From Escherichia coli (GTDB lineage Bacteria > Pseudomonadota > Gammaproteobacteria > Enterobacterales > Enterobacteriaceae), in NCBI RefSeq assembly GCF_036507355.1, contig NZ_AP027877.1: 64,000 bases of DNA; one strand, written 5' to 3'. Numbering within the stretch: position 1 is the first letter of the stretch; every line of letters begins with the position of its first letter. The notes under the pieces were generated by a model that saw nothing but the letters and a program-made list of their open reading frames with translations, had not been told where the DNA came from and ran no database searches. Of this stretch, positions 2,412 to 50,495 are shown one piece after another. The position numbers and the translations under genes are program-made.

Positions 2412-2422
2412 AGTTAACTCCG

Positions 2423-2450
2423 AAAAAATGCCGGGAGCTGTGTCCCGGCA
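2423..2450 (-). terminator. Intrinsic-terminator-like hairpin between orf212 and piPolB
   Basis: Minus strand reads UGCCGGGA-CACAGC-UCCCGGCA (8-bp GC-rich stem, 6-nt loop) followed directly by UUUUUU (2428-2423). The U-tract abuts the piPolB Shine-Dalgarno. Confidence 0.5.
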
Positions 2451-2457
2451 TAAAGAA

Positions 2458-3096: not shown

Positions 3097-3286
3097 TTAT
3101 ATCACCTTTAAGTTTGTTTTGACGATGTGCATTTTCCCACTCAACAATATCATCAAGAGAGAATCGTATAGCCCGCCCAATTCTGATGAAGGGCGGGAGT
3201 TTTCCGGGGTTGCGCGATATATCTGACGCAACCGTGGATGCAGAAAGATTAAATCTTTCTGCGAACTGCTTAATGGTTAAATACAT
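3086..3286 (-). CDS. AlpA/MerR-like helix-turn-helix excisionase / transcriptional regulator (66 aa)
   Basis: The small protein MYLTIKQFAERFNLSASTV...IRIGRAIRFSLDDIVEWE has the typical AlpA-family pattern. It lies immediately downstream of the integrase on the same strand. Confidence 0.75.
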   Translation of the reverse strand: MYLTIKQFAERFNLSASTVASDISRNPGKLPPFIRIGRAIRFSLDDIVEWENAHRQNKLKGDINGY

Positions 3287-3436
3287 AAACCTCCGGTTTC
3301 AGAGAATAAGAAGCCACGCGGATTTAATATCAATCCACATTCTGTGATGACTTAATGCAGGGCCCTGCAGAAGCATGCAATGACAATACCGTCCTTAAAC
3401 GAGTGTTGCATCAATCACGAATCACAGATCATAGGT

Positions 3437-4564
3437 TCATTTTGTGTCATAACTTTCTATGACCTGAGAAACCACTGCGTGTGATGTCGCTGCATTGTGA
3501 AAAGCGTAGCGACGGGTCGCCGTGAGTGAATGGTGATTTAGCAGATGGGAAGCGATTGCAATATCCCCGGTCGCCTGTAGTACCCGGGTGGCAAAGGTAC
3601 GGCGCAGGTCATGCATCCGCAGGTTATCAATGTTGGCATCCCGACAAATACGGGCAAAGGTTGCACGCGGATATGCCAGAGGGCGGGCATTGTCGGTTAG
3701 TTGTGGAAAAATGTAAGTTTTGCTGAGCATCAGGTCCTGCTGGCACTGGACAACTGCAATGGCTGGAAGTGCAAGTGGGCAGGTGAAAGGGTGTCCGGAC
3801 TTTGTATCAGGCAGTATGAGTTGATGCATATCCGGGTGCCAGTACTCCCATTTCAGGGTACATACCTCACCAATACGCATCCCCGTATAAAGAGCAAGCA
3901 ATATAGAATCAGCTGCCGGTGTTTGCAGCGCTGTTGCTGCGTTAATAAAGCGCGGGATTTCTGTCGCTGACAGTGTGCGATAGCGAATGTTATTTTCTTT
4001 CAGATAGCGGACATGTGACATCGGGGAATGTGTGATCCATCCAGCACGTACTGCCAGAGAGCATATTTTGGACAATATTGCGAGGATACGGTTTACTGTT
4101 GACGGACGTAATTTTTCCCGTAAGCCAGCAGCATATTGTTCTAGTTCTCCTGCCGTGATGTCGCGAAGTTGCCGCTTGCCCCAGAACGGGCGAACGTAGA
4201 GGTTGAGTTTTGACAACTCTGACTGAGGACTCTTTTTATACAACTGCAAATCCGGTAGCCACAGGTCATTGATGGCCTGTTCCACAGTGAATCGACGGGA
4301 CTGAACAGCAAGGCGATTTTTATCGGCAAGCAGGTTCATCACATGCTGACGGGCATCCTCAATGCAGAGATGAGGGAATTCACCCAGTGTTTCATATATA
4401 CGTTGATTTTTGATGGTGGCGCGAAAGGCCAGCGTGATCCGTTTTGGATATACCAGTGCACGCAGGTTTTGGCACTGAATATCACGGTATTCCTGACAAC
4501 CCGTGAGGGGATGTGGAAGTTGGTGAATTGATTTGTTGCTGAAACGCAGATCCAGAATAGGCAT
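3437..4564 (-). CDS. Tyrosine site-specific recombinase (phage-type integrase), 375 aa
   Basis: Catalytic signature read in the translation: R in YTGMRIGE, HDLRRTF (H-x-x-R), LLNHHS (H), TRRYAF (Y nucleophile). SD GGAG lies upstream of the ATG. Confidence 0.9.
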   Translation of the reverse strand: MPILDLRFSNKSIHQLPHPLTGCQEYRDIQCQNLRALVYPKRITLAFRATIKNQRIYETLGEFPHLCIEDARQHVMNLLADKNRLAVQSRRFTVEQAINDLWLPDLQLYKKSPQSELSKLNLYVRPFWGKRQLRDITAGELEQYAAGLREKLRPSTVNRILAILSKICSLAVRAGWITHSPMSHVRYLKENNIRYRTLSATEIPRFINAATALQTPAADSILLALYTGMRIGEVCTLKWEYWHPDMHQLILPDTKSGHPFTCPLALPAIAVVQCQQDLMLSKTYIFPQLTDNARPLAYPRATFARICRDANIDNLRMHDLRRTFATRVLQATGDIAIASHLLNHHSLTATRRYAFHNAATSHAVVSQVIESYDTK

Positions 4565-4706
4565 CGTATTTCTCCTGTAAATGACACTGGAAAAATACGA
4601 TGTGAGGTTATAGTCTGCCAGTTACAGCTTTCACAGTTCATCAGGTGAAAAATGCTGATTCGGATATAATGGCAACACAATTCCATGTCGCCATTATATT
4701 AAGAAA

Positions 4707-5837
4707 CTACAGTTTCATGATCTTGTTCGCTATTTTTTCGAAGTAAACCTCATTCTTAAGAAGAGTGATATTGTTAGTTTGAACACCCAGACCACTGGAG
4801 GTTGACTGGAAGTTGAGTGAACCACTTATCACGGTGGACTTTCCTGATAAAAATGAAATCAACTCCTTGGAAGATGGTGCCCACTCAGGGTTTAAGAGTA
4901 ATGCAATGTAGATATATGTCTTACGAAGCAATTGTTCGATATCTTTTTTATACCCCGTAGTGTTTTGCTTACCTTTAATGCAAATTGATTTGATTATGAA
5001 CTCATCAGGGCTGGTTAAAGGCGTTTTAAACTTATTCAGTGATCCATCGTTATGAATGACTTCATAAGGCAGCATAGATAAAATGATCAATGCAATCATT
5101 TTAGGATGATAAAGGTAGTTATCACGAATGATTTTTCCTGCCTTCATTGTATTGAGTGTTGTTTGAATAAATACAAAAAGATATTCAGAGCAAAAGTAAC
5201 AAAACACAAGCCAGGATAGGTCAATGGCTGGAATGTTAATATCCTTAGGTAGTTTGTTTAGCCAGTATTCAGACTTCAAAAAGGTCCTGATTTCAACAGT
5301 ATATTCATGCATTTTTGCGCTGAAATCAAGCATTGCTACTTGACCTGATTGTTCCGTAACTGTGTGGTCTATAAATGTTAGTGTATTGCACATTTTATCC
5401 AGCGTGTTTTGAAAACAAGAAAGGAGTTCGGCATTATTATTACCATTAACCGCAGATGAAAGTTCAGTTGCAATAAATGCATCCAGTAGCATACAGATTT
5501 TTTTCGGAATGACATTTTTACGGGATTGCTGTGAATAGAAATATACTGCCAGTAAATTAAAGGCAGTGCACTCCTTTTTTAACCATTGTTCGAGCACTGG
5601 GACGTGCTGAAAAAAATTGATATGCTTAGCAGTAGATGCTGATGGAGATAGTACATGAAGAATATCTACAGCAGGCTTCATTTGCAATATTTGATCGGAT
5701 TCGGTAGTCGTCATTAGTTCCAGTAATTGCTGTTCAGAAAATAGTTTAGACAGGTGATCAATGTCTTTTTGGTATTGGTTAAGTTTTTTTAAATTCCCCG
5801 GTACACGGGTTACATTGTTTTTCATTTTCTCGAACAT
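4707..5837 (-). CDS. Hypothetical protein (376 aa), AT-rich orphan with hydrophobic segments
   Basis: Long intact ORF with a good SD (GAGGA, 7 nt before the ATG). No recognisable catalytic motif. Hydrophobic stretches include IDLSWLVFCYFCSEYLFVFIQTTL and MIALIILSMLPYEVI. Confidence 0.6.
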   Translation of the reverse strand: MFEKMKNNVTRVPGNLKKLNQYQKDIDHLSKLFSEQQLLELMTTTESDQILQMKPAVDILHVLSPSASTAKHINFFQHVPVLEQWLKKECTAFNLLAVYFYSQQSRKNVIPKKICMLLDAFIATELSSAVNGNNNAELLSCFQNTLDKMCNTLTFIDHTVTEQSGQVAMLDFSAKMHEYTVEIRTFLKSEYWLNKLPKDINIPAIDLSWLVFCYFCSEYLFVFIQTTLNTMKAGKIIRDNYLYHPKMIALIILSMLPYEVIHNDGSLNKFKTPLTSPDEFIIKSICIKGKQNTTGYKKDIEQLLRKTYIYIALLLNPEWAPSSKELISFLSGKSTVISGSLNFQSTSSGLGVQTNNITLLKNEVYFEKIANKIMKL

Positions 5838-6239
5838 AATTTTATCCTCGTTTGAATTAATACACTGATTTAAAAAGTAGCATGTCGTGTTAGCGAGGTA
5901 ATCCTAAAACGTGAATGGGATCAGGGGCAAGCTTGAATCTGCGTAAGGATATGGCTTAAATTTAATGGTGTAATTAGTGGATTAGAGGCTTATAGCTATT
6001 TAAATACAATAAGTTATGACGGTGTGTGGCGGGTGTAAATCGGTTAGTTTTTATGGTTAAAATATGAGCGCTATGAGGTTTCAGAGATGGTGGTGTTTAA
6101 ATTACATAAAACCAAGGCCTGATAATCAGTATCAATACCGGAACGATGTCATATGATTAACACTGTCTATGGCATTGATAATGATCTATGCAAGGCTGAA
6201 ATTAGCTCTGCTTCACGATGATATAGTGTTCTATAAAGA

Positions 6240-7475
6240 TTAAAAGGAAATAAACAGAGCCTTTCGCCGATGAATCAATGTGCTGATTTCCCTCAAATCA
6301 GCCTCAATACTACCAACATCACCAAAGACTTCACCTCTAATCTCACTTCGATTTTTCATGAAATTGGTGCTTAATAAGCTTTCTTTTTTTAATGCCATTA
6401 ATTTTGGTTTTATATCGTTATAGAAATGCTTACGGCTTACCCTGATGCTATGAATCGAGTAGTAAACTGTTTTATACATCAAAAATATAAGTAACTGGCC
6501 GAGAAGATATTCTTTTTCAATGTATTTATATTGAGAGGATTTTTCGCGTTTCGCCAGGTAGAAAACATGAGGTGCGATGATGGTGGGGATAAAATCCAGT
6601 GCTGGAGAGGTTTTGGTTTTTTCTGTTTCTCTTCCGGATTGAAGATGTTGAAGTACAGAGTATACAATGCTTAAAATTATGGCGTTACTTATATTATTAA
6701 TTGCAGTTGGGTAAATATGCAGATTGCTTATCAATTCTGAAAGGCAAAGTAAAACACCAGTGATGTTGGGTTTTCTGCCGGAGATTGTGGTGCTGTTGAA
6801 AATGTGACGATTCTTACGACTTATATTGACAAGTTTATGAGTGCAGAACTCTATATGTTCGACGATTTTATCTTGACTATTTTTAATGTATTTTGAAATG
6901 TTAGTGATCCGGCCATTCAACGTTAGTTCATCAAGCAATATATCATTTTTAATATTGCGAATTTCATCGCAATGTTCACATTGAGAAACTATCTCATGTA
7001 ATACATAACTCGAAGTATTGCGTGACGATGCTGATATGTAATCTAAAATGGAATGCTCGACTTTGATTTTTTGTTTGTATTTTTTAATGCACTGTTTGAT
7101 TGTTTTTTGTAGAGTATTTGAGATGTGTTTTTTATATTCTTTTAGAAAATCTTGCTCTAAAAAGAGTGAGGAGAAGATCAACTGCTGGCGAGATAATTTA
7201 ATCTCAGGCTTGATCAATTTAATCCGAAAAACTCTTCCCTCCAACTCATAGCTGAACATGGAAGATAAGTCATAGTGGGGTGATAAATGTTCGAGTAACG
7301 ACATTCGTGTATTCATTAGCCGCTTGAATTTATGGTCAGCATACATAAGTGTTTTTTTTATTTGCTCATCATAAAGTGGGCCGATAGCGCAGTTGGCAAT
7401 ACTCATTCTATCCGGAGACCTCCAGTCAGCAGGGGAATCACATTGACGGTCATCATTACTATCAAAGGGCATCAA
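6240..7475 (-). CDS. Hypothetical protein (411 aa), AT-rich orphan with Lys-rich helical N-half and hydrophobic C-half
   Basis: Long intact ORF transcribed divergently from hsdM. Segments GVLLCLSELISNL, AIILSIVYSVL, FIPTIIAPHVFYL and LLGQLLIFLMY look membrane-associated. Start is 7475 or 7472 (tandem ATG), with a weak SD. Confidence 0.55.
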   Translation of the reverse strand: MMPFDSNDDRQCDSPADWRSPDRMSIANCAIGPLYDEQIKKTLMYADHKFKRLMNTRMSLLEHLSPHYDLSSMFSYELEGRVFRIKLIKPEIKLSRQQLIFSSLFLEQDFLKEYKKHISNTLQKTIKQCIKKYKQKIKVEHSILDYISASSRNTSSYVLHEIVSQCEHCDEIRNIKNDILLDELTLNGRITNISKYIKNSQDKIVEHIEFCTHKLVNISRKNRHIFNSTTISGRKPNITGVLLCLSELISNLHIYPTAINNISNAIILSIVYSVLQHLQSGRETEKTKTSPALDFIPTIIAPHVFYLAKREKSSQYKYIEKEYLLGQLLIFLMYKTVYYSIHSIRVSRKHFYNDIKPKLMALKKESLLSTNFMKNRSEIRGEVFGDVGSIEADLREISTLIHRRKALFISF

Positions 7476-7778: not shown

Positions 7779-9302
7779 ATGAACGACAAAATCAGTCAGG
7801 ACACGATCAACAAAGCCCTGTGGGCCGCGTGTGATACGTTCCGTGGCACCATCAGTGCTGATACCTATAAAGACTTTATCCTTACCATGCTGTTCCTCAA
7901 GTACATTTCAGATGTCTGGCAGGATCACTACGACGAATATAAAGTGCAATATGGCGATGCGCCGGAACTGATTGAAGCGATGATGGCGAACGAGCGCTTC
8001 GTGTTGCCGAAAAGCGCCAGTTTCTATGCGTTGTACGAGCGACGTCATGAGCCGGGCAACGGTGAGCGTATCGATCAGGCGCTGCATGCGATTGAAGAAG
8101 CCAACGGCACCAAACTGAAAGATGCCGGGAAAAGTGTCTTCCAGGATATTTCGTTTAACACTGACCGTCTGGGCGAAGAAAAACAGAAGAACACCATCCT
8201 GCGTCAGTTGCTGGAAGACTTTGCCGGTGAAGATCTTAACCTGAAGCCAAGCCGTGTCGGTACGCTGGACGTTATCGGTAATGCTTACGAATATCTGATC
8301 AAAAACTTTGCTGCCAGCGGTGGGCAGAAAGCCGGGGAATTCTATACCCCGCCGGAAGTTTCGGACCTGATTGCTGAACTGCTCGATCCGCAACCGGGTG
8401 ATACCATCTGCGATCCGGCCTGTGGTTCGGGTTCATTGTTGATGAAGTGTGGGCGTAAAATTGTCTCCGGGCATGATAGTCGTAACTATGCATTGTTCGG
8501 TCAGGAAGCGATCGGTTCTACGTGGTCGCTGGCGAAAATGAATATGTTCCTGCACGGGGAAGACAACCATAAAATCGAGTGGGGCGATACCATTCGTAAC
8601 CCGAAGCTGCTCGATAAAAATGGCGACCTGATGCTGTTTGATATCGTGACCGCTAACCCACCGTTCAGCCTCGATAAGTGGGGCCATGACGAGGCCGAGA
8701 ACGATAAGTTTGGCCGTTTTCGTCGCGGTGTACCGCCGAAGACTAAAGGAGATTACGCTTTTATCTCGCATATGATCGAAACCCTGAAACCGGGAACTGG
8801 CCGTATGGGCGTAGTTGTGCCACACGGTGTGCTTTTCCGTGGCTCCAGCGAAGGTAAAATTCGCCAGAAACTGATCGACGAAAATTTGCTGGATGCGGTA
8901 ATTGGTCTGCCGGAAAAACTGTTCTACGGTACGGGGATTCCGGCTGCGATTCTGATTTTTAAAAAGCAGAAAGTTGATGACAAGGTGCTGTTTATCGATG
9001 CCAGCCGTGAATTCAAGGCAGGTAAAAACCAGAACCAGCTTAGCGAAGAAAACATTAAGAAAATCGTCAAGACCTACCGTGATGGCGATAACGTCGAGAA
9101 ATACGCCTATCTTGCCAGCCTGAAGGAAATTCAGGACAACGACTATAATCTCAATATCCCGCGCTATGTCGATACCTTTGAAGAAGAGGATGAGATTGAC
9201 CTGCTGGCGGTGCGAGCAGAACGCGAGCAACTGAAGGCGGAATTGGCGAAGCTGGAAACGGAGATGGCTGGATATTTGAAGGAGTTGGGTTATGGCTCGT
9301 GA
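7779..9302 (+). CDS. hsdM: Type I restriction-modification system, DNA methyltransferase subunit HsdM
   Basis: N6-adenine methylase motifs: DPACGSGSLL (AdoMet binding) and VTANPPFS (NPPF catalytic). The HsdM N-terminal domain pattern (LWAACDTFRG) is present. hsdS overlaps the 3' end by 11 nt. Confidence 0.95.
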   Translation: MNDKISQDTINKALWAACDTFRGTISADTYKDFILTMLFLKYISDVWQDHYDEYKVQYGDAPELIEAMMANERFVLPKSASFYALYERRHEPGNGERIDQALHAIEEANGTKLKDAGKSVFQDISFNTDRLGEEKQKNTILRQLLEDFAGEDLNLKPSRVGTLDVIGNAYEYLIKNFAASGGQKAGEFYTPPEVSDLIAELLDPQPGDTICDPACGSGSLLMKCGRKIVSGHDSRNYALFGQEAIGSTWSLAKMNMFLHGEDNHKIEWGDTIRNPKLLDKNGDLMLFDIVTANPPFSLDKWGHDEAENDKFGRFRRGVPPKTKGDYAFISHMIETLKPGTGRMGVVVPHGVLFRGSSEGKIRQKLIDENLLDAVIGLPEKLFYGTGIPAAILIFKKQKVDDKVLFIDASREFKAGKNQNQLSEENIKKIVKTYRDGDNVEKYAYLASLKEIQDNDYNLNIPRYVDTFEEEDEIDLLAVRAEREQLKAELAKLETEMAGYLKELGYGS

Positions 9303-10566
9303 TTCGCTTTACCCAGTGAGCGTTAAAGCTGGAAAACCGATCCTTGGAATGCTACCTACAGGATGGCAAAAGTTATCATTAGAAAAGTGCTTAAATATAG
9401 AGGCAAGAAAGGCATATATACAAGATAATCAAGAGTATGACTTAGTTACAGTAAAGCGCTCCAGAGGTGGCGTAATAAGACGTGAGCATCTTAAAGGAAA
9501 AGATATCTCCGTAAAAAGTCAATTCTATATTAAAGAAGGCGACTTTCTCATATCAAAACGACAAATTGTGCACGGTGCTTGCGGTCTTGTACCTAAAGAA
9601 CTTTCTGGCTCAATTGTATCGAATGAATATTGTGTGCTTACAGGGAAGTCCGGTTTTTATCTTCCTTATATGGAATTTCTATCGGAGTCTCTATATTTCC
9701 AGCAAACCTGCTTCCACTCTAGCATTGGTGTGCACATAGAGAAAATGATTTTTAAGTTAGATAGTTGGTTTAAGTGGCCATTTAATATCCCCCCACTGTC
9801 TGAACAAAAGAGAATCGTTAAAATCCTGTCAACCTGGGATAAGGCGATTTCGGTGACGGAAAAGCTTCTCACCAACAGTCAGCAGCAGAAAAAAGCCCTG
9901 ATGCAGCAATTGCTTACCGGGAAAAAACGCTTGCTGGATGAGAGGGGGGTGAGGTTTAGTGGGGAGTGGAAGAGAGTAAAACTGGGTGCGATAGCCGATA
10001 TGAACAGTGGAGGTACTCCGAAATCAACGGTTGAAGAGTATTATGGCGGGAATATCCCATGGGTATCTATTTCTGATATGACATCTAATGGAAAGTGGAT
10101 TGCTACAACTGAAAAATATCTGACTGAATTAGGATTGAACAGTTCATCCGCAAGAATATATCCAAAAAACTCGGTTCTTTATGCTATGTATGCTTCTATA
10201 GGTGAATGCAGCATTGCTGCTGTAAATTTAACATCTTCGCAGGCAATCTTGGGTATTAGACCAAAAGATTGTTTAAATTATGAGTTTTTATATTTCTATC
10301 TTACATCATTAAAAGAAAAAATAAAACTGCAAGGCCAGCAAGGTACACAGTCCAACCTAAACGCCGGAATGGTTAAAGAGTTTGAACTAGACTTACCCAG
10401 TATAAGAGAACAACAAAAAATCGCCGCCGTCCTGTCCGTCGCCGATGCCGAAATCTCCACGCTGGAGAAAAAACTCGCCTGCCTGAGAGATGAGAAAAAA
10501 GCCCTGATGCAACAGCTACTGACTGGCAAACGTCGTGTTAAGGTCGATGAGGCGGTTGCCGAATGA
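9292..10566 (+). CDS. hsdS: Type I R-M specificity subunit HsdS (two target-recognition domains)
   Basis: Two AT-rich variable halves are separated and followed by conserved helical repeats: QQKKALMQQLLTGKKRL and DEKKALMQQLLTGKRRV. Position is between hsdM and hsdR. Confidence 0.9.
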   Translation: MARDSLYPVSVKAGKPILGMLPTGWQKLSLEKCLNIEARKAYIQDNQEYDLVTVKRSRGGVIRREHLKGKDISVKSQFYIKEGDFLISKRQIVHGACGLVPKELSGSIVSNEYCVLTGKSGFYLPYMEFLSESLYFQQTCFHSSIGVHIEKMIFKLDSWFKWPFNIPPLSEQKRIVKILSTWDKAISVTEKLLTNSQQQKKALMQQLLTGKKRLLDERGVRFSGEWKRVKLGAIADMNSGGTPKSTVEEYYGGNIPWVSISDMTSNGKWIATTEKYLTELGLNSSSARIYPKNSVLYAMYASIGECSIAAVNLTSSQAILGIRPKDCLNYEFLYFYLTSLKEKIKLQGQQGTQSNLNAGMVKEFELDLPSIREQQKIAAVLSVADAEISTLEKKLACLRDEKKALMQQLLTGKRRVKVDEAVAE

Positions 10567-11246
10567 AACTGACGAAAAGCGGTCCACTGACTGACCGGGA
10601 AATCGACTGGCTGGAAGAAATATTAATGAAGTATGGAATGGATGATTCTGTACTCTGTTTCTCTGAGCTGGATGGATTGCTGACGGCGATTTTATCAGGT
10701 CCAAATATGGTTTCACCCAATATCTGGCTGAGTGCTATTTGGGGAGGAGGCGATTATCATCCGAAATGGTCATCTGAGAGAGAGATGGAGCGTTTTGTCA
10801 GTCTGTGTTTTCAGCATATGAACGATATCGCTGGTTGCCTTTATGACGCCCCTGAACTGTTTGAGCCGATTTTCAATGAGCGTGAGGTAAAGGGGGAAAA
10901 ATATACCATTGTGGAAGAGTGGTGTTTTGGTTATATGAAAGGAAAGTCACTGGATGACTGGTCTGGTCTTCCCGGTGAGTTACGGCCTTCTCTGGAAGTG
11001 ATCGCTCTTCATGGCGTGGAGAAGAATTTTCCTGTACTTGAGAAAATGACCAGAGAGCAGTTTGAGAAAAGTATTTCCCTTATTAAGCCTGCTGCACTGG
11101 CACTTTATCAGTACTGGTTGTCAGTGAGAATGTCAGAGGCATCATCCCGGCCTGTTCCAGTGAAGGGGGCAGAAAACATGCCCGGGCGAAATGACCCGTG
11201 TCCGTGTGGCAGCGGTAAAAAATTTAAGAAGTGCTGTCTGCATTGA
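10563..11246 (+). CDS. YecA-like (UPF0149) protein with C-terminal SEC-C metal-binding motif, embedded in the type I R-M operon
   Basis: Collinear with chromosomal YecA (20141-20806) along its whole length, with roughly half the residues identical by eye. The C-terminus [20 protein letters not shown] is a SEC-C zinc/iron-binding motif. Its ATG overlaps the hsdS stop (ATGA). Confidence 0.85.
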   Translation: MKLTKSGPLTDREIDWLEEILMKYGMDDSVLCFSELDGLLTAILSGPNMVSPNIWLSAIWGGGDYHPKWSSEREMERFVSLCFQHMNDIAGCLYDAPELFEPIFNEREVKGEKYTIVEEWCFGYMKGKSLDDWSGLPGELRPSLEVIALHGVEKNFPVLEKMTREQFEKSISLIKPAALALYQYWLSVRMSEASSRPVPVKGAENMPGRNDPCPCGSGKKFKKCCLH

Positions 11247-14200: not shown

Positions 14201-14583
14201 TGAAACAGTACCTTTTGTTCCGTGAATTTGAAGAACAGGTTGAAGCCCGTAAGCTCAGCGATATCCCGGATGCACTGGCGGTAAACAAGCATGCTCAGGC
14301 GTATTACGGTGTATTTAAAAAAGAGCTACCTGAGGTTTTTGCGGTAAACGACGTTCAGGTGCAGGATAAGTGGACCAAGCTGGCTTTTGAAGTGGACAAC
14401 ATTATCGTCAAAGCGGTGGCAGAAAACTCCCTGAACCCCCAGGACATTGAGAAAGTCGTTAAGACAAGTCTGCTACCACTGCTGTTTACGGCCTGCCGGG
14501 AAATTGGTGCCGGAATGAATCAGGTTAACCGTATTGTGGAAACCATCATCCAGATACTGCGCGTTGGTTTGATGAAATCATGA
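11296..14583 (+). CDS. hsdR: Type I R-M restriction/translocase subunit HsdR (1095 aa)
   Basis: N-terminal PD-(D/E)xK nuclease motif (RPDIVCFVNGIPLAVIEAKSP). SF2 helicase motif I is TTGSGKSYT and motif II is VLIDEGHRSQ. Operon context with hsdM/hsdS. Confidence 0.95.
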   Translation: MMNQTYTPKFQEEYSAKIPALTLLTSLGWTFLSPKQIMDYRGYKQDEVVLRPVLREELSKRSFMAGGKTCQLSEKALDNLISQVCSPALNEGLLKANERMYNHLLYGIAVTEFVDGKKVNPTIALIDWEHPESNQFHFTEEFTVLRSGGVETRRPDIVCFVNGIPLAVIEAKSPAGHGKKGPTIDEGISQSIRNQLNDEIPQLFAYSQILLSINGHDGRYGTCHTPMKFWAAWREEDITYAQMYALRNHKLSTEQIHALFDDRPSVDLKWYQQLIDGGELAVSGQDKLLISLLSPERLLEMTRFFTLFDKKTGKIVARYQQVFGIKRLLERISTRRPDGGREGGVIWHTTGSGKSYTMVFLSKALILHDSLKQCRIVVVTDRVDLEGQLSGTFVSGGELAGKDDKAKAMATSGQKLAQQIGSGKERIIFTLIQKFNSATKLPECVNTSPDIIVLIDEGHRSQGGENHVRMKLALPNAAFVAFTGTPLLKEDKTTNKFGPIVHAYTMQRAVEDKAVTPLLYEERIPDLEVNDRAIDAWFDRITDGLSEAQKADLKRKYARKGEVYSADDRIRLIALDIATHFSKNIDEGLKGQLACDSKISAIKYKKYLDEAGLFESAVVISPPDTREGNTEVDESKLPEVTKWWKDNVGTQDESVYTRNIISRFDTDEKLKLLIVVDKLLTGFDEPKNTVLYIDKPLKSHNLIQAIARVNRLHPLKKFGLLIDYRGILAELDTTIGKYQDLASRTQGGYDIKDIDGLYSAMSSEYKRLPHLYNQLWAIFAGVKNKNDTEQLRAVLVPKMEERDGEMVDIHQKTRDDFFEALTAFAGCLKVALQSATFFTDKSFTEQDRNLYKETVKQMSSLRQWAMQVSGEQVNYDDYAEQVKKLLDKHVTGVEVREPDGVYEVGKMGKSEKPEEWDNNKTRNETDIIKTRVTKMIEQELRDDPYAQEAFSKLLRMAIEEAEKLFDHPLKQYLLFREFEEQVEARKLSDIPDALAVNKHAQAYYGVFKKELPEVFAVNDVQVQDKWTKLAFEVDNIIVKAVAENSLNPQDIEKVVKTSLLPLLFTACREIGAGMNQVNRIVETIIQILRVGLMKS

Positions 14584-15335
14584 GTGAAAAAGAATCGCCA
14601 TCAATGAAAGCGTTACGCATTGTCTATGGTGATGATGTCATCACCGTACAGTGTGTTCCGCGTCAGGTCGTAAAGGGCAGGGTGCTCATCAAGGTTTATC
14701 CGGACTGCCGGGTTGTGGCCTCTGTACCGCCTGAAACACCGGAGCACGAGGTATTGTCTGCGCTGAAAAAAAGAGGGCGCTGGATATACCAGCAACTGCG
14801 TGATTTCAGGGAGCAACAGACACACATTGTTCCGCGTCAGTATGTCAGCGGAGAAAGCCATTATTATCTCGGTAAGCAATATCAGTTGAAAGTGACAGAA
14901 GACGCTACTGTGCCGCAACGAGTGAAAATGTTGCGTGGGCGTCTGGAAGTGACTGTCAGACACAAATCGGCAGAAAAGATTAAAGCCTTGCTGGCTGAAT
15001 GGTATCGGGAACGTGCCAGAGATGTTTTTCAGCGCAGGCTTGATTTACTGATTCCGCAGACCCTTTGGGTCAGTGAGCGTCCTCCGATACGTCTGCGGGC
15101 GATGCAAACGCAATGGGGCAACTGTTCAGCAAAAGGCTGTCTGACCCTGAATCCATGGCTGGTTAAGGCATCCTCAGAATGTATCGATTATGTTTTGCTA
15201 CATGAGTTATGCCATGTGGCTGAGCACAACCACAGCGAGGAGTTTTACCGTCTGATGGGGCAGGTTATGCCTGGGTGGGAAAAGGTCAAGAAACGACTGG
15301 ATGGGATGGCTGGGATGTTGTTGGCTGATATGTAA
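14580..15335 (+). CDS. M48/DUF45 (YgjP-like) zinc metallopeptidase coupled to hsdR
   Basis: HExxH motif in YVLLHELCHVAEHNHSEEFY, followed by a WxxxK tail typical of DUF45. The ATG overlaps the hsdR stop (ATGA). Confidence 0.85.
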   Translation: MSEKESPSMKALRIVYGDDVITVQCVPRQVVKGRVLIKVYPDCRVVASVPPETPEHEVLSALKKRGRWIYQQLRDFREQQTHIVPRQYVSGESHYYLGKQYQLKVTEDATVPQRVKMLRGRLEVTVRHKSAEKIKALLAEWYRERARDVFQRRLDLLIPQTLWVSERPPIRLRAMQTQWGNCSAKGCLTLNPWLVKASSECIDYVLLHELCHVAEHNHSEEFYRLMGQVMPGWEKVKKRLDGMAGMLLADM

Positions 15336-15393: not shown

Positions 15394-17232
15394 ATGAGTA
15401 AGTTAGATAATAAAATTGAAGCACGCCATCGTAATTTGTTTGATGTTCTAAATGCGCAAAAATATACCGTTGATTACTTTCAGCGCGAGTATAGCTGGGG
15501 TGAGAAACATATTGAAGAGTTGGTTACAGACTTAACATCTGCGTTTCTCAATGAATACACCGTCGGTGATTCTCGGGAGCAGGGTGAAAACTACAATAAT
15601 TATTACTTAGGACCATTTGTTGTGAGTAGTAAAGATGGGAAACGGAGTATTATTGATGGTCAGCAACGACTGACTTCATTAACTTTATTTCTAATTTACC
15701 TCCATAACCTTCAGAAAGAACTTAAATATGAAGAGAAAATAGAATCAATGATTTTCTCCGAGTTACGTGGCAGCAAATCATTCAATATAGTAGTTGAAGA
15801 CAGAATACCTTGCATGGAAGCATTGTTTAATTTTGGTAGCTATAGTTTAGTTGATGGGGATGATGAGTCAACCCATAACATGGTGGAGAGATATCAGAAT
15901 ATCACAGATGCTTTTCCTGATGAATTAAAAGGTCAGGCTTTTCCTTTTTTTATCGACTGGCTTAAGTATAACGTTATTATGGTTGAGATAGTTGCCTATT
16001 CAGATGAAAACGCATATACCATCTTTGAGACTATGAATGACCGAGGATTAAATCTTACTCCGTCCGAAATGCTTAAAGGTTTTTTACTTTCACGCTTTCA
16101 TCAGGGAGATAAACGCCAAAAGGTAAATGAACTCTGGAAAAAAGCGATGATGGATTTAAAAAACTATGATAAAGATGAAGACCAACGTTTTTTCCAGTCA
16201 TGGTTGCGTGCTCAATATGCTGATACAATACGCCCGGGTAAAGCTGGTTCAAAAAATGAAGACTTTGAAAAAATAGGTACGCGTTTTCATAGCTGGGTTA
16301 GAGATAATCTTCAGGCGGTGGGATTGGACCCAGATAATGGTGAGACATTCGAACGATTTATACAAAAAAACTTTTTGTTTTATTTGAATGCCTATACACA
16401 AATACTGAATGCTGAGAGAGCATTAACGCACCAACTGGAATATGTATTTTATATCCACCATTGGGGTATTGCACCTACTTTAAGTTTCCCTTTGATGTTG
16501 GCTCCATTAAATGTAGGTGACAGTCCTGATGCTGTGATAGCCAAAATAAACCTGGTGGCGCGCTATATTGAAACATTTGTTGTTCGTCGTTCTGTTAATT
16601 TCCGAAAATTCTCTGCCAGTTCTATTCGTTACACAATGTACAGTCTTGTTAAAGAAATTCGTGGTAAAAGTATTGAAGAATTAAAAGATTTGTTATCTAA
16701 GAAGTTATCCGAAATGCCAGATACTTTTGCAGGAATGGAAGAGTTTCGTCTCCATGGTCAAAACTATCGTTTTGTGAAGTTTTTGCTTTCTCGTATAACT
16801 GCGTGGGTTGAGCAGCAAGCCGGAATGAGTACAACCTTCATTACATATTATCAGCCAGAACACGGTAAGCCATTTGAAGTCGAGCATATTTGGGCCGATA
16901 AATATGAACGTTACTCTGATGAGTTTGAACAAGAGCACGAATTTAACAATTACAGAAATCGCTTAGGTGATTTGGTTTTATTACCTAGAGGCTCAAACCA
17001 GTCATATGGTGATTTGTGTTACGATCAAAAGCAACCTCATTACATCAAAGAGAATCTCCTGGCTAAATCGTTATGCCCATTGGCATATATGAATAACCCT
17101 AATTTCAATCAGTTGAGAAATGTATTCGGATTGCCTTTCAAACCACATGATTCATTTAAAAAACAAGATGTCGATGAACGACAGTCTTTGTATAAAATAA
17201 TTTGTGAGAATATTTGGGACCATAATTTATAG
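15394..17232 (+). CDS. DUF262/DUF1524 two-domain nuclease, GmrSD-like type IV restriction enzyme
   Basis: The N-terminal DUF262 signature IIDGQQRLTSL is present. The C-terminal His-Me finger-like part reads FEVEHIWADK ... NRLGDLVLLPRGSNQSYGD. I chose ATG 15394 (SD AGGGAG 8 nt upstream) over the TTG at 15361 used in the ORF track. Confidence 0.85.
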   Translation: MSKLDNKIEARHRNLFDVLNAQKYTVDYFQREYSWGEKHIEELVTDLTSAFLNEYTVGDSREQGENYNNYYLGPFVVSSKDGKRSIIDGQQRLTSLTLFLIYLHNLQKELKYEEKIESMIFSELRGSKSFNIVVEDRIPCMEALFNFGSYSLVDGDDESTHNMVERYQNITDAFPDELKGQAFPFFIDWLKYNVIMVEIVAYSDENAYTIFETMNDRGLNLTPSEMLKGFLLSRFHQGDKRQKVNELWKKAMMDLKNYDKDEDQRFFQSWLRAQYADTIRPGKAGSKNEDFEKIGTRFHSWVRDNLQAVGLDPDNGETFERFIQKNFLFYLNAYTQILNAERALTHQLEYVFYIHHWGIAPTLSFPLMLAPLNVGDSPDAVIAKINLVARYIETFVVRRSVNFRKFSASSIRYTMYSLVKEIRGKSIEELKDLLSKKLSEMPDTFAGMEEFRLHGQNYRFVKFLLSRITAWVEQQAGMSTTFITYYQPEHGKPFEVEHIWADKYERYSDEFEQEHEFNNYRNRLGDLVLLPRGSNQSYGDLCYDQKQPHYIKENLLAKSLCPLAYMNNPNFNQLRNVFGLPFKPHDSFKKQDVDERQSLYKIICENIWDHNL

Positions 17233-17290
17233 CAAAGTTAGGGTGTTAATTAATCTGTAATGGCATCATGATTTTTAAAAGGAGGTTGAA

Positions 17291-18418
17291 TTGCGTTCTG
17301 AAACGTTTTTTGTCAAATTTATTGAACAACTGAAAGGTATTTCGGTTGAGGATGATGTTGAATTCAATTTTTTTGAATTGGGTGGTTCCGGATATCTCGA
17401 AAATCCAACTACGGATTTGATGGCTTTGTTTATGGGAGCCCAGAAAATGGTGCCGCCATGGTTGCTCAAAGCATTGCTATGTTGCCTGGATGATTCCCTC
17501 GATGTTGATGAAATTGATTTCACTTCTCTGGAGCTAATGAGAGAGGCCCGAACAGAAGATGGGAAATATATTGATATTCTTATCAGACATGATGAATTCA
17601 TTATAGGTATTGAGCATAAAGTTCTGGCTGATACATATAATCCTTTTCCCAGCTATGTAAGTCTCATTGATAGTTACGGCGGCAACAATCAAAAACTATT
17701 TCGCTGTATATTAAAGCCTGACGGTAACAGCGCTAAAGGCGTAGACGGTTGGCAACTGATCAATTATTCACTGCTGCTGGAAACCGCCATTCGACGTCTG
17801 GGGTTGGAGATGATGAATCAAGAGTTCAGCAAGTGGACTGTTTTTTATCAGGAGTTTTTAAGTCATCTTAAAAAATTGAGTGAGGTTAGTATGGATAAGG
17901 TATCTGATAAAAATGTGGAGTTTGTCACTGAAAATTTCTCAGCTTTGATAAAATCGGTTCAACTGCTGGAAATGTACCAAAATGCTATCACCGAGGAAGC
18001 TAAATCGGTTGTCTCAGAGGTATTGCCTGATATTCATATTGCAACAGGTATTAATAACTGGAAGGGTTACTATAAAGCAATTCATCTGATGCCGGGATGC
18101 TGGGGGCAAGGTAAAACAGGAATTACGTTAGTTTATCGCCCTTCAGAGGATGGACGAGATGAAGCTGAGTTCTACGTATATGGATGGATACATTCAGATG
18201 ATTACCCTGAAGTTAATGCACTAAAAGAAGAAATAAGAGTTGCTTTAAGTGCTGGAGATTTCATTCCAACAGCTAGCCCTGAGGACTATGAAGTATCAAT
18301 TACTGGGAAGGGGAAAGTGCTTGAACTGAGTTTTTGGGGGAATACGAGAAGCAAAAAAGATGCACTGGTTCTTCTTAAGGATATGACTAAGTGGATGGAC
18401 TCAAAAATAAGAACATAA
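17291..18418 (+). CDS. PD-(D/E)xK nuclease superfamily protein (PDDEXK_4-like), 375 aa
   Basis: The N-terminal FNFFELGGSGYLENPTTDLMALF pattern is followed by EDGKYIDILIRHDEFIIGIEHKV (D ... E-x-K core). TTG start with a strong SD (AAGGAGG, 5 nt spacing). Confidence 0.65.
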   Translation: MRSETFFVKFIEQLKGISVEDDVEFNFFELGGSGYLENPTTDLMALFMGAQKMVPPWLLKALLCCLDDSLDVDEIDFTSLELMREARTEDGKYIDILIRHDEFIIGIEHKVLADTYNPFPSYVSLIDSYGGNNQKLFRCILKPDGNSAKGVDGWQLINYSLLLETAIRRLGLEMMNQEFSKWTVFYQEFLSHLKKLSEVSMDKVSDKNVEFVTENFSALIKSVQLLEMYQNAITEEAKSVVSEVLPDIHIATGINNWKGYYKAIHLMPGCWGQGKTGITLVYRPSEDGRDEAEFYVYGWIHSDDYPEVNALKEEIRVALSAGDFIPTASPEDYEVSITGKGKVLELSFWGNTRSKKDALVLLKDMTKWMDSKIRT

Positions 18419-18522
18419 AGTAATATGACTGAGTGATGACGATCTTTTTTAAATTGTGGATTATTAGGCTGGTAATTGAAGCGCCGAATAGACAGATATT
18501 GGAATAAAAGGAGAATATTCAA

Positions 18523-19704
18523 ATGATTTATCAGTGTGATACTTGCAGTAGAACGACTTTTGAGGTTAATTGTCCCTGGTGTAGTGGAGTTTCGCCTGTA
18601 AAAACGTCTGCATGGGGTTCAGCATCATCGACCGCACAAGCAATAGGCATACAACGTATGACACCATTGAATCCATCGTTTTATCCCGAATTTCAGTATC
18701 GTTCAAAGGGTGTTCTAAAAGATCTATTTGGGAAAAAGAAAGAGCAAACTCAGCTTAATCAATTGCTTGAAAATGTTCTCAAAAAATACTCCAGTTTAAA
18801 AGATCCATATTTTACTAACTTCATTTACACTTCCAGATTCTCACATAATAATAAATCGGAAGCAGATTACTCAACAGATAATGGTACATACTCCGAATTA
18901 CAACTTTTCCGTGAGGTGTTGGTCAGAAAAGGGTTCAATGAGCTTGAGCAGTTACCTGAGCTATTAGATAAATTACTCCTTACCACGTCATTTAACGCTC
19001 TTTATTATGGTTTCGCTAAGGAAGTTAAACGGCATATTAAATCCACACTTACTGAATCCTTGAAGTCATGGATTGAGGAAGCGGGTACCACTTTTAGGGC
19101 AGATCTTTCATTGTTTCTATTCTATATATGGAGCAATAAAATAGAGTTCTCATCAGTAGAGTTCAATGAAAAAGCGGAGGCTACGCCTGGTGTTCCTTTA
19201 GTTTCATTTGATGAAGTTAAAAAATACTTAGCTGTGTGCGAACATATTTATTTTGATATTCTGGTTGATAGATTAGCTACACGGCTCGAACATTTTAACC
19301 CTAACAAATTCGTCACCATGTATTTAGTTGATGCAATGGACGGTTTCCAGTTTGAAGATTTCCTTGTGGAAGTATTCCAGACTATGGGCTATGACGTCAA
19401 AGAAACCAAGAGAACGCAAGATCAGGGGGCAGATCTCTTCGTCACTCGATTTGGTAAGGATATGGTTATTCAGGCGAAAAATTATTCTGGTTCTGTAGGT
19501 AACTCGGCGGTGCAGCAGGTGATCTCTGCTAAAACATTCTATGGTTGTGATGAGGCGATGGTTGTGACTAATTCCTACTTCACACGCTCTGCCAAAGAAT
19601 TAGCTGAATCAGCCTTGGTACGTTTGATCGACAGGGATGAACTGCAAAAGTATCTGGATGATTACAATCAGAAGATAATTGAAGATTTCCAGTCAAACTC
19701 GTAA
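18523..19704 (+). CDS. Mrr-like restriction endonuclease with N-terminal zinc ribbon (393 aa)
   Basis: N-terminus has CDTC-x11-CPWC (4-Cys ribbon). The C-terminal Mrr_cat-type domain reads DGFQFEDFLVEVFQTMGYDV...QGADLFV...VIQAKNYSGSVG...VVTNSYFT. SD AAGGAG lies upstream. Confidence 0.8.
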   Translation: MIYQCDTCSRTTFEVNCPWCSGVSPVKTSAWGSASSTAQAIGIQRMTPLNPSFYPEFQYRSKGVLKDLFGKKKEQTQLNQLLENVLKKYSSLKDPYFTNFIYTSRFSHNNKSEADYSTDNGTYSELQLFREVLVRKGFNELEQLPELLDKLLLTTSFNALYYGFAKEVKRHIKSTLTESLKSWIEEAGTTFRADLSLFLFYIWSNKIEFSSVEFNEKAEATPGVPLVSFDEVKKYLAVCEHIYFDILVDRLATRLEHFNPNKFVTMYLVDAMDGFQFEDFLVEVFQTMGYDVKETKRTQDQGADLFVTRFGKDMVIQAKNYSGSVGNSAVQQVISAKTFYGCDEAMVVTNSYFTRSAKELAESALVRLIDRDELQKYLDDYNQKIIEDFQSNS

Positions 19705-19889: not shown

Positions 19890-19945
19890 ATTTAAAATCC
19901 CTCGGCGTTCGCGCTGTGCGGGTTCAAGTCCCGCTCCGGGTACCA
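19890..19945 (+). repeat. attR-type direct repeat: 3' 56 nt of tRNA-Leu(UAA) leuZ (anticodon loop to CCA), not a functional tRNA
   Basis: ATTTAAAATCCCTCGGCGTTCGCGCTGTGCGGGTTCAAGTCCCGCTCCGGGTACCA matches the 3' part of K-12 leuZ as I recall it. The sequence 5' of 19890 does not match the acceptor or D arm. Confidence 0.8.
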
Positions 19946-19988
19946 TGGGAAAGATAAGAATAAAATCAAAGCAATAAGCAGTGTCGTG

Positions 19989-20012
19989 AAACCACCTTCG
20001 GGTGGTTTTTTT
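19989..20012 (+). terminator. Rho-independent terminator of the glyW-cysT-leuZ tRNA operon
   Basis: AAACCACC-TTCG-GGTGGTTT hairpin followed by a T-run. Confidence 0.8.
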
Positions 20013-20140: not shown

Positions 20141-20806
20141 ATGAAAACGGGACCGTTAAACGAAAGTGAGTTGGAATGGCTGGACGATATTCTGACCAAA
20201 TACAACACTGACCACGCCATCCTTGATGTGGCGGAGCTGGACGGTTTATTGACGGCGGTGTTGAGTTCTCCGCAAGAGATTGAACCGGCACAGTGGCTGG
20301 TTGCCGTGTGGGGTGGGGCTGACTATGTGCCGCGCTGGGCGTCAGAGAAAGAGATGACGCGCTTTATGAACCTGGCTTTTCAACATATGGCCGATACCGC
20401 AGAGCGTCTGAACGAATTCCCGGAGCAGTTTGAGCCGTTATTCGGCTTGCGAGAAGTTGATGGCAGCGAGCTGACGATTGTTGAGGAGTGGTGCTTTGGC
20501 TATATGCGGGGCGTGGCACTTTCTGACTGGTCAACATTGCCCGATTCGTTAAAACCAGCGCTGGAGGCGATAGCGCTGCACGGTACTGAGGAAAACTTCG
20601 AGCGGGTAGAGAAGATGTCGCCAGAAGCGTTTGAAGAGAGCGTAGATGCCATTCGACTGGCGGCGCTTGATCTACATGCGTACTGGATGGCGCATCCGCA
20701 GGAAAAAGCTGTTCAGCAACCGATCATAGCAGAAGAGAAACCGGGGCGTAACGATCCTTGCCCGTGCGGTAGTGGTAAGAAATTTAAGCAGTGCTGCCTG
20801 CATTAA
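20141..20806 (+). CDS. yecA: YecA, UPF0149 family protein with SEC-C metal-binding domain
   Basis: Translation matches recalled K-12 YecA ([21 protein letters not shown] ... [20 protein letters not shown]). Synteny next to leuZ and tyrP. Confidence 0.95.
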
Positions 20807-50444: not shown

Positions 50445-50495
50445 CATTTTTTTATCATACAGCATTATCTTTGATTCATTACGCAGGAGCGTCAT

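What the first reader, a model, noticed from the sequence alone, without database searches (positions are those of the whole stretch)
15394..19704. Three consecutive stand-alone nuclease genes downstream of the R-M operon (GmrSD-like, PD-(D/E)xK, Zn-ribbon Mrr-like)
Seen: three co-oriented AT-rich genes with short gaps (58 and 104 bp), each with its own strong SD. (1) DUF262 (DGQQR) plus a DUF1524 His-Me finger. (2) A 375-aa protein with a PDDEXK_4-like N-terminus and a D...ExK core. (3) A 393-aa protein with a CxxC...CxxC ribbon and a C-terminal Mrr catalytic domain. Established: GmrSD and Mrr families are modification-dependent type IV restriction enzymes. Inference: either three independent type IV-like enzymes stacked to cover different phage DNA modifications, or a cooperating multi-gene module. 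The middle PD-(D/E)xK protein has a ~230-aa C-terminal region of unknown function that could be a sensor.
Basis: partly seen in the sequence, partly recalled or inferred. Interest (0 to 1): 0.65.

Follow-up and report, generated by a model that had tools for sequence, protein, structure and literature searches.

The report
Three independent nuclease genes on pipolin
Three neighbouring nuclease genes sit at the end of a known E. coli mobile defence island (a pipolin); comparison with other genomes indicates they are separate single-gene cassettes, not one cooperating three-gene machine, so the locus is fairly ordinary.

Summary
Three co-oriented, AT-rich genes lie at 15394-17232, 17291-18418 and 18523-19704, with gaps of 58 and 104 bp.

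The genes are the last cargo of an E. coli pipolin, a piPolB element integrated in tRNA-Leu next to yecA. They lie downstream of a type I R-M operon.

Comparative genomics argues against a conserved trio. Gene 1 occupies a variable slot: it is in 158 E. coli genomes, against 211 for gene 2 and 219 for gene 3. Genes 2 and 3 are adjacent only within one Enterobacteriaceae pipolin lineage (gene 2 at 80% identity or more). Twenty loci with more diverged gene 2 homologues carry no gene 3. About eleven contexts of gene 3 homologues (52-86% identity) carry no gene 2. Some E. coli strains have lost one of the two.

PADLOC labels gene 1 HEC-06-like (a family with experimental antiphage support) and gene 2 PDC-S26 (an untested candidate). 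A published pipolin survey already lists both labels. Gene 3 lacks the Mrr N-terminal winged helix, so only its nuclease domain is Mrr-like. Modification dependence is inferred for gene 1 alone.

Verdict: stacked single-gene defence cassettes, of low-to-moderate interest.

The parts
15394..17232 (+). Gene 1: a 612-aa GmrSD-family protein. It has a DUF262/ParB-like NTPase domain with DGQQR at 88-92 and a DUF1524 His-Me nuclease domain with E497-H498. It occupies a variable cassette slot.
   Evidence: Pfam GmrSD_N 4e-33 and GmrSD_C 7e-8. Best PADLOC hit is HEC-06, 4e-41. Motif positions. Nearest solved relative by sequence is DndI 9jfl, 1e-9. Present in 158 of 5426 E. coli genomes, against 211 for gene 2 and 219 for gene 3. 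Absent from L002-L004 and L007-L012, which still carry genes 2 and 3.
17291..18418 (+). Gene 2: a 375-aa protein. It has an N-terminal PD-(D/E)xK nuclease domain (PDDEXK_4; E37, D95, E108-x-K110), a helical linker at 159-244 and a C-terminal alpha/beta domain at 250-375. PADLOC classes it as the candidate PDC-S26.
18523..19704 (+). Gene 3: a 393-aa protein. It has an N-terminal CxxC..CxxC zinc ribbon (C5, C8, C17, C20), a conserved helical region of unknown function, and a C-terminal Mrr-type PD-(D/E)xK nuclease domain (D304, Q317-A-K319).
19890..19945 (+). The 3' part of tRNA-Leu. This is the att repeat that marks the right end of the pipolin; yecA follows at 20141-20806.
   Evidence: The sequence ...GGTTCAAGTCCCGCTCCGGGTACCA is read. 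ARAGORN finds no complete tRNA. Megablast matches annotated tRNA-Leu in 5424 of 5426 E. coli genomes, often at two places per genome. Pipolins integrate at tRNA-Leu between pgsA and yecA (PMC11551731, PMC7385651).
7779..15335 (+). Upstream neighbours, which are context and not part of the trio: a type I R-M operon of hsdM, hsdS, an embedded YecA-like gene, hsdR and an M48/YgjP-like peptidase.
   Evidence: Pfam, RefSeq annotation.

Best explanation
The three genes are autonomous single-gene nuclease cassettes. They are stacked at the attR end of an E. coli pipolin, a piPolB-encoding element integrated in tRNA-Leu next to yecA, directly downstream of the element's type I R-M operon.

Gene 1 is a GmrSD-family enzyme, closest to PADLOC's HEC-06. 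Its ParB-like DUF262 NTPase domain (DGQQR) most likely controls a DUF1524 His-Me nuclease that cuts incoming phage DNA. By analogy with GmrSD and BrxU, the target is probably modified DNA that escapes the neighbouring type I R-M.

Gene 2 (PDC-S26) is a PD-(D/E)xK nuclease with a helical linker and a separate C-terminal alpha/beta domain. That domain plausibly acts as the recognition or regulatory module.

Gene 3 is a zinc-ribbon and helical N-terminal module fused to an Mrr-type nuclease domain. The N-terminal module presumably supplies target recognition in place of the winged helix of canonical Mrr.

Shown here: domain content, conserved catalytic residues, island context, and the lack of conserved linkage. 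Inferred: antiphage function for genes 2 and 3, modification dependence for gene 1, and the sensor roles of the non-catalytic domains.
For: Domains and motifs.

Island context.
- A truncated piPolB-like gene at the left end of the window, named 'DNA polymerase' by some sources.
- A tyrosine integrase.
- A tRNA-Leu att fragment at 19890-19945.
- yecA, tyrP and ftnA to the right.
- The pipolin survey reports Type I RM and PDC-S26 as frequent, and HEC-06, mza and hhe as rarer, defence cargo of Enterobacterales pipolins.

HEC-06 gave phage resistance that was lost on mutating DGQQR and the EH nuclease motif.

Independence of the three genes.
- Gene 1 is absent from many islands that keep genes 2 and 3. 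Its slot holds other short genes or IS1. The slot downstream of gene 3 holds MZA or a dCTP deaminase, and the upstream neighbourhood can be a CBASS operon instead of the type I R-M.
- Twenty loci with gene 2 homologues of 24-77% identity have no gene 3, gene 1 or hsdR within 8 kb, and no conserved neighbour at all. One of them is a solitary copy directly after uvrC-pgsA in Kluyvera.
- Gene 3 homologues of 52-86% identity stand alone in Yersinia, Kosakonia (inside a lambdoid prophage), Pantoea, Dickeya, Klebsiella, Pseudomonas, Paraburkholderia and four IMG/VR contigs, one of which probably duplicates the Kosakonia prophage.
- E. coli AH21 keeps genes 1 and 2 with gene 3 almost wholly deleted. 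Strain 0H15 keeps genes 1 and 3 without gene 2. Neither gene is therefore needed to tolerate the other.
Against: - Within the pipolin lineage, genes 2 and 3 stay adjacent and intact even when the neighbours change. In Pantoea sp. M_9 hsdR and M48 have decayed to fragments, yet gene 2 (80% identity) and gene 3 (88%) are intact. In Enterobacter kobei a CBASS operon lies upstream instead of the R-M. This could reflect a lineage-specific functional pairing.
- No intrinsic terminator was detected between the genes on the + strand, so co-transcription is possible.
- No experiment bears on genes 2 and 3. PDC-S26 and PDC-S02 are guilt-by-embedding candidates only.
- The HEC-06 HMM's best stretch covers only residues 1-266 of gene 1. 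Its identity to the tested HEC-06 protein is unknown.
Confidence: 0.7

Rival explanations
1. Genes 2 and 3 form a lineage-specific two-gene system, for example a heteromeric nuclease or a sensor-effector pair. Gene 1 is a separate insertion upstream.
For: Every locus with gene 2 at 80% identity or more also has gene 3 immediately downstream, with a similar spacer of roughly 85-110 bp. This covers 14 loci in about 10 genera. It includes loci where the R-M has decayed or is replaced by CBASS. The pipolin survey singles out PDC-S26 as the one frequent defence gene that has not been recently exchanged.
Against: The linkage does not extend past one mobile-element lineage. It is explained by shared descent and a position next to attR. 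Gene 2 homologues at 77% identity or less (20 loci) and gene 3 homologues at 86% or less (about 11 contexts) are always solitary. Natural E. coli variants lack one or the other. Each protein carries its own complete catalytic motif plus a non-catalytic domain.
Confidence: 0.15
2. All three genes act with the type I R-M as one co-regulated operon-level unit. In this reading the nucleases are accessory subunits or back-up effectors that depend on HsdMSR.
For: All genes share one orientation with short gaps, and no terminator was detected. Payne et al. report that embedded and associated defence genes are co-oriented with the host system in 96.7% of cases, and suggest co-regulation.
Against: Genes 2 and 3 occur intact without a functional R-M. 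Gene 3 occurs in prophages and in unrelated islands. Gene 2 occurs alone. Co-transcription would not imply functional dependence.
Confidence: 0.05
3. Genes 2 and/or 3 are not defence genes. Instead they serve the mobile element itself, for example in excision, replication or recombination processing at the att end, or as addiction/exclusion functions.
For: They sit next to attR, and within pipolins gene 2 is not a recently exchanged gene. Gene 3 is unusually conserved for a defence gene: 60-65% identity over its full length between E. coli and Pseudomonas or Paraburkholderia. No experiment links either family to phage resistance.
Against: Both families occur outside pipolins, in typical defence or moron positions. 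Gene 3 lies between recE/recT/kilR and cI in a lambdoid prophage, and next to RelE/MqsA and radical-SAM genes. Gene 2 lies in many unrelated contexts. The PADLOC candidate models for gene 2 were built from genes embedded in BREX, DISARM and type I R-M systems.
Confidence: 0.1

Closest known systems
GmrSD-family type IV restriction enzymes, in particular PADLOC's HEC-06 (Payne et al. 2024 preprint), plus BrxU, SspE and DndI
   Same: Gene 1 has the DUF262 domain with DGQQR and the DUF1524 domain with the (D/E)H His-Me motif in one polypeptide of about 600 aa. It sits beside a type I R-M, as reported for GmrSD-like genes. HEC-06 is its best PADLOC family.
   Different: It is only distantly related by sequence to solved members: DndI at 1e-9, with BrxU and SspE not detected at E<=0.01. 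It lies downstream of the R-M, not embedded within it. Its substrate preference is unknown.
PADLOC phage-defence candidate PDC-S26 (Pfam PDDEXK_4, PF14281)
   Same: Gene 2 matches PDC-S26 HMMs at 1e-50 over most of its length. It has the invariant E..D..ExK core. It is a stand-alone gene, as the 'S' (single-gene) label implies. PDC-S26 is already reported as frequent cargo of Enterobacterales pipolins.
Mrr (E. coli K-12 type IV methyl-dependent restriction enzyme) and other Mrr_cat-bearing nucleases (MspJI/AspBHI, the ZorD nuclease domain, type ISP enzymes)
   Same: The C-terminal domain of gene 3 is a clear Mrr_cat fold with D..QxK. Its structural neighbours are AF1548, AspBHI, MspJI and LlaBIII.
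   Different: It has no Mrr_N winged-helix domain and no SRA-like domain. Instead it has a CxxC..CxxC ribbon and a conserved helical region with no detectable relatives. It is therefore not a member of the Mrr type IV family in the strict sense.
Pipolins of Enterobacterales as defence islands (de Toro/Redrejo-Rodriguez group, NAR 2024; Sci Rep 2020)
   Same: Same integration site (tRNA-Leu between pgsA and yecA), a piPolB-like gene, tyrosine recombinases, and type I R-M plus PDC-S26 plus HEC-06 cargo.
   Different: In the text I read, that survey does not mention the gene 3 family. It also does not address whether the adjacent genes cooperate.

Membership tests
GmrSD family (type IV restriction) | N-terminal DUF262/ParB-like domain with the DGQQR NTP-hydrolysis motif | tested here: met
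   PF03235 at 4.4e-33, residues 17-231. DGQQR at 88-92.
GmrSD family (type IV restriction) | C-terminal DUF1524 His-Me finger nuclease with the (D/E)H..N motif, in the same polypeptide | tested here: met
   PF07510 at 6.6e-8, residues 485-558. EVEH at 495-498, followed by NRLGDL and GSN.
GmrSD family (type IV restriction) | Cleavage depends on DNA modification (hmC, glucosyl-hmC, 5mC or phosphorothioate) | not testable with these tools
   This needs biochemistry or phage assays. It is not reported for HEC-06 in the text I read.
HEC-06 (PADLOC) | Match to the HEC-06 HMMs over the whole protein | tested here: inconclusive
   It is the best PADLOC family at 4.1e-41, but the best stretch covers only residues 1-266 of the query, and the match is split into 2-3 stretches. 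Identity to the tested protein is unknown.
PDDEXK_4 / PDC-S26 | PF14281 domain with a conserved PD-(D/E)xK core | tested here: met
   PF14281 at 5.4e-13. PDC-S26 at 1e-50, residues 8-300. E37, D95, E108 and K110 are invariant in 26 sequences down to 29% identity.
PDDEXK_4 / PDC-S26 | Antiphage activity | not testable with these tools
   PDC models are guilt-by-embedding candidates. No validation was found in the literature searched.
Mrr (type IV methyl-dependent restriction enzyme) | Mrr_cat PD-(D/E)xK domain with D..(Q/E)xK | tested here: met
Mrr (type IV methyl-dependent restriction enzyme) | N-terminal winged-helix (Mrr_N) DNA-recognition domain | tested here: not met
   No Pfam family other than the Mrr_cat-type ones was found at E<=0.1. 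The N-terminus is a CxxC..CxxC ribbon plus helices, with no structural or sequence relatives found.
Multi-gene defence system (conserved trio or pair) | Co-occurrence and adjacency of the components maintained across diverged homologues and different genomic contexts | tested here: not met
   The trio occurs only in part of one pipolin lineage. The pair occurs only where gene 2 is at least 80% identical. Twenty diverged gene 2 loci and about 11 gene 3 contexts are solitary.
Pipolin (piPolB mobile element) | A piPolB gene, a tyrosine recombinase, and att repeats overlapping tRNA-Leu | tested here: met
   An 803-aa open frame running off the window start has a weak PF03175 hit (E 0.005, below the cut-off) and cluster names of 'DNA polymerase'. 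Integrase. tRNA-Leu fragment. The piPolB identity rests on weak sequence evidence plus the published description.

The most novel reading that the evidence does not exclude
Gene 3 may represent an undescribed, widely spread single-gene defence family. It would combine a zinc ribbon, a strongly conserved helical N-terminal module and an Mrr-type nuclease. The N-terminal module would recognise something other than DNA methylation, which could explain the unusual 60-65% full-length conservation from E. coli to Pseudomonas and Paraburkholderia. Within pipolins it may additionally have acquired gene 2 (PDC-S26) as a working partner.
Probability: 0.15. Interest if true: 0.5.

Novelty: new member of a known kind. 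Interest (0 to 1): 0.28.

Why it matters
The locus is a clear example of modular stacking in a defence island. A type I R-M attacks unmodified foreign DNA. It is followed by a GmrSD-like enzyme that probably attacks modified DNA, and then by two further stand-alone nucleases. All sit on a pipolin that moves between enterobacterial genera.

The practical value is modest. The locus provides two compact, untested single-gene candidates (PDC-S26, and the zinc-ribbon/Mrr-type family) carried by a few per cent of complete E. coli genomes (211 and 219 of 5426), which could be cloned and tested directly. It does not reveal a new kind of system, and a published pipolin survey has already catalogued most of it.

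Tried and rejected
- Conserved trio: rejected. Gene 1 is a variable insert.
- Conserved gene 2-gene 3 pair beyond the pipolin lineage: not found. I used tblastn, all-vs-all BLASTP clustering of neighbours, and HMM searches with family profiles.
- The 334-aa gene upstream of gene 3 in Pseudomonas as a cryptic gene 2 relative: no hit with the gene 2 profile.
- Solved structural relatives by sequence for genes 2 and 3, using single sequences and profiles: none.
- NCBIfam: no family for any of the three genes.
- PHROGs: only domain-level hits of unknown function.
- Plasmids: no nucleotide match to the trio. Only one full-length gene 3 homologue, on a Burkholderia megaplasmid.
- Phage records: only Mrr_cat domain-level hits.
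- Literature search by RefSeq protein accessions: nothing.
- Structure prediction of the gene 3 N-terminus: low confidence (pLDDT 30-60), so no fold assignment was possible.
- One Pfam call on small slot ORFs failed because of wrong coordinates and was not repeated.
- P0006 (Providencia) could not be located on a contig.


Full report
**1. Observation**

The window carries three co-oriented ORFs:
- 15394-17232, 612 aa from the ATG (an upstream in-frame TTG at 15361 is unlikely to be used);
- 17291-18418, 375 aa, TTG start;
- 18523-19704, 393 aa.

The gaps between them are 58 and 104 nt. Each start is preceded by a purine-rich Shine-Dalgarno-like sequence: GGGAG, AGGAGG and AAGGAG. GC falls to 0.37-0.41 here, against about 0.50 in the flanks.

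- Gene 1: GmrSD_N 4e-33 and GmrSD_C 7e-8.
- Gene 2: PDDEXK_4 5e-13, N-terminal 166 residues.
- Gene 3: Mrr_cat 7e-30, residues 270-377.

- Gene 1 has DGQQR at 88-92 and EVEH at 495-498.
- Gene 2 has E37, D95 and E108-x-K110, invariant in 26 homologues down to 29% identity.
- Gene 3 has C5, C8, C17 and C20, and D304..Q317-A-K319, invariant in 35 homologues.

**2. Where the genes sit**

The window is E. coli chromosome. The 4.5-kb stretch is 100% identical to strain HKUOPY1, where RefSeq annotates the same three CDS.

Upstream lie hsdM, hsdS, a YecA-like paralogue, hsdR and an M48/YgjP-like peptidase. Further left lie two unknown genes, a tyrosine integrase, a 212-aa unknown, and an 803-aa open frame that runs off the window. 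That frame has a weak B-family polymerase hit, and its full-length 866-aa cluster is named 'DNA polymerase' by some sources.

Immediately after gene 3, at 19890-19945, lies the 3' part of a tRNA-Leu without the rest of the tRNA. Chromosomal yecA, tyrP and ftnA follow.

This matches the published description of E. coli pipolins. These are piPolB elements integrated at tRNA-Leu between pgsA and yecA, with the tRNA-overlapping repeat called attR (PMC7385651; PMC11551731). The same survey lists Type I RM and PDC-S26 as frequent defence cargo of Enterobacterales pipolins, and HEC-06, mza and hhe as rarer cargo.

PADLOC HMMs give the same labels here:
- Gene 1 is best matched by HEC-06 (4e-41).
- Gene 2 is matched by PDC-S26 (1e-50).
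- Gene 3 has only domain-level matches to its nuclease domain (ZorD nuclease domain, PDC-S02, mREase_IV).

**3. Is it a trio, a pair, or three singles?**

*In E. coli complete genomes (5426).* Gene 1 is present at 80% coverage or more in 158 genomes, gene 2 in 211, gene 3 in 219, and the whole stretch in 150.

Islands without gene 1 keep hsdR, M48, gene 2 and gene 3. The slot between M48 and gene 2 then holds short hypothetical genes or IS1. The slot after gene 3 may hold an MZA system or an anti-phage dCTP deaminase. Gene 1 is therefore a swappable cassette.

*In other genera.* A scan of one genome per species with a profile of gene 2 gave 28 loci.
- The eight loci with gene 2 at 95% identity or more (Buttiauxella, Citrobacter, Klebsiella, Intestinirhabdus, Enterobacter, Scandinavium) all carry gene 3. 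Seven also carry hsdR and M48; the eighth (Intestinirhabdus) is a short contig that begins within M48. Only the two Buttiauxella loci carry gene 1.
- The twenty loci with gene 2 at 24-77% identity carry no gene 3, no Mrr_cat protein, no gene 1 and no hsdR within 8 kb. This was checked by tblastn and by family HMMs.
- All-vs-all clustering of their neighbours finds no shared gene beyond species-level synteny.
- In Kluyvera, the 77% homologue sits alone directly after uvrC-pgsA.

*Gene 3 contexts.* Gene 3 has 405 detected homologues. The best 120 listed are all at least 59% identical, nearly all over almost the full length. The contexts I fetched show it alone in:
- Yersinia (86%);
- Kosakonia (84%), inside a lambdoid prophage between recE/recT/kilR and the cI-type repressor;
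- Pantoea cypripedii (83%), next to RelE/MqsA, DUF6119 and radical-SAM genes;
- Dickeya (81%), among Rhs genes;
- Klebsiella (79%), Pseudomonas (65%) and Paraburkholderia (61%);
- four IMG/VR contigs (52-84%), one of which (84%) probably duplicates the Kosakonia prophage.

*Exceptions.* There are two, and both belong to the same lineage.
- Pantoea sp. M_9 has gene 2 at 80% and gene 3 at 88%, behind decayed fragments of hsdR and M48.
- Enterobacter kobei has gene 2 at 89% with gene 3, behind a CBASS operon.

*Natural loss variants.* E. coli AH21 has lost nearly all of gene 3 but keeps genes 1 and 2. Strain 0H15 lacks gene 2 but keeps genes 1 and 3. Neither product is therefore needed to neutralise the other.

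*Conclusion.* The trio is not a conserved unit. The gene 2-gene 3 adjacency is confined to one mobile-element lineage. It is most simply explained by shared descent at the attR end of the pipolin. That fits the survey's remark that PDC-S26 is the one frequent defence gene not recently exchanged.

**4. What each protein looks like**

*Gene 1.* It has the complete GmrSD architecture. Its closest solved relative by sequence is the phosphorothioate-sensing DndI (9jfl, 1e-9). BrxU and SspE are not detected at E<=0.01. HEC-06, its best PADLOC family, protected against phages, and mutation of DGQQR or the EH motif abolished that protection. The text I read does not show modification dependence for HEC-06.

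*Gene 2.* The AlphaFold2 model is good (mean pLDDT 82.7). It shows a PD-(D/E)xK core at residues 81-158, long helices at 159-244, and a separate alpha/beta domain at 250-375.
- These scores are too low and too scattered to name a function. A recognition or regulatory role is an inference.
- The wider family is sizeable: 978 clusters (50% identity) at E<=1e-10, mostly 340-400 aa.

**5. Mechanism, and how sure**

The best-supported reading is a stack of independent effectors behind a type I R-M.
- Gene 1 probably covers phages whose modified DNA evades the R-M. This rests on analogy with GmrSD and BrxU (established for those enzymes, cited) and is inferred here.
- Genes 2 and 3 are stand-alone nucleases. 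Their non-catalytic domains presumably gate or target cleavage. Their triggers are unknown.
- I put 0.7 on 'three autonomous cassettes', 0.15 on a lineage-specific gene 2-gene 3 partnership, 0.05 on dependence on the R-M, and 0.1 on a non-defence role for genes 2 and/or 3.
- No terminator was found between the genes. Co-transcription is therefore possible, but it would not by itself mean cooperation.

**6. Comparison with what is known, and novelty**

- Gene 1 is a member of the GmrSD family: both defining domains and motifs are met, and modification dependence is untestable here.
- Gene 2 is a member of PDDEXK_4 / PDC-S26.
- Gene 3 works like an Mrr-type nuclease, but it fails the membership test for Mrr proper because it has no Mrr_N.
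- The island type and two of the three labels are already in the literature.
- What is not described, as far as I could find, is the gene 3 family as such and the C-terminal domain of gene 2.

I rate the finding as a new member of a known kind, with interest about 0.28. The most novel reading still open is that the gene 3 family is an undescribed single-gene defence with a new recognition module, possibly working with gene 2 in pipolins. I give that a probability of about 0.15 and an interest of about 0.5 if true.

Noticed in passing
window 10563-11246 (+): A YecA-like paralogue (UPF0149 plus SEC-C motif, 57% identical to the chromosomal YecA at 20141-20806) is embedded between hsdS and hsdR of the pipolin's type I R-M. 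Its start overlaps the hsdS stop. Some relatives lack it (L004, L007, L012). Others carry an extra, roughly 615-aa 'cold shock domain-containing protein' between it and hsdR (L002; probably also L005, L006, L008 and L010, judging by the gap).
   Followed up: partly
window 14580-15335 (+): An M48/YgjP-like metallopeptidase overlaps the hsdR stop codon by 4 nt and travels with hsdR in all close relatives. In Pantoea sp. M_9 (L040) both have decayed to fragments, while genes 2 and 3 stay intact.
   Followed up: partly
window 19890-19945, and 19985-20012: A 3' fragment of tRNA-Leu (the attR repeat of the pipolin) with no complete tRNA in the window. It is followed by a GC-rich hairpin with a T-run that looks like the tRNA operon terminator.
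   Followed up: yes
window 1-7475 (- strand): The pipolin backbone: a truncated piPolB-like gene (3-2411), a 212-aa unknown, a tyrosine integrase (3437-4564), a 376-aa unknown (4707-5837) and a 411-aa unknown with a faint AbiJ_NTD4 hit (6240-7475). The two unknowns next to the R-M could be further defence candidates.
   Followed up: no
window 9292-10566 versus L001, L003, L004, L007 and others: hsdS is only 34-54% identical between otherwise 97-99% identical R-M operons. This indicates swapping of specificity subunits or target-recognition domains between pipolins.
   Followed up: no
L003 10807-18437; L004 10894-12663; L045 1-3497: The slots around genes 2 and 3 in related pipolins hold other defence systems: MZA (mzaA-E), an anti-phage dCTP deaminase, and a CBASS operon (SMODS, Cap2-like ThiF, JAB, Saf_2TM-SAVED). 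This illustrates cassette exchange around a constant gene 2-gene 3 block.
   Followed up: partly
L043 5001-6179 (Kosakonia oryzae), L046: An 84% homologue of gene 3 lies inside a lambdoid prophage, between recE/recT/kilR and the cI-type repressor. This is a typical moron or defence position.
   Followed up: partly
gene 3 family, alignment A2: Gene 3 homologues are unusually conserved for a putative defence protein: 60-65% identity over the full length between E. coli and Pseudomonas or Paraburkholderia. This includes the N-terminal region of unknown function, and it remains unexplained.
   Followed up: partly
window 32001-33000, 38001-39000 and 50001-51000: Further low-GC patches (0.38-0.45) in the rest of the window may mark other horizontally acquired segments. 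I did not examine them.
   Followed up: no
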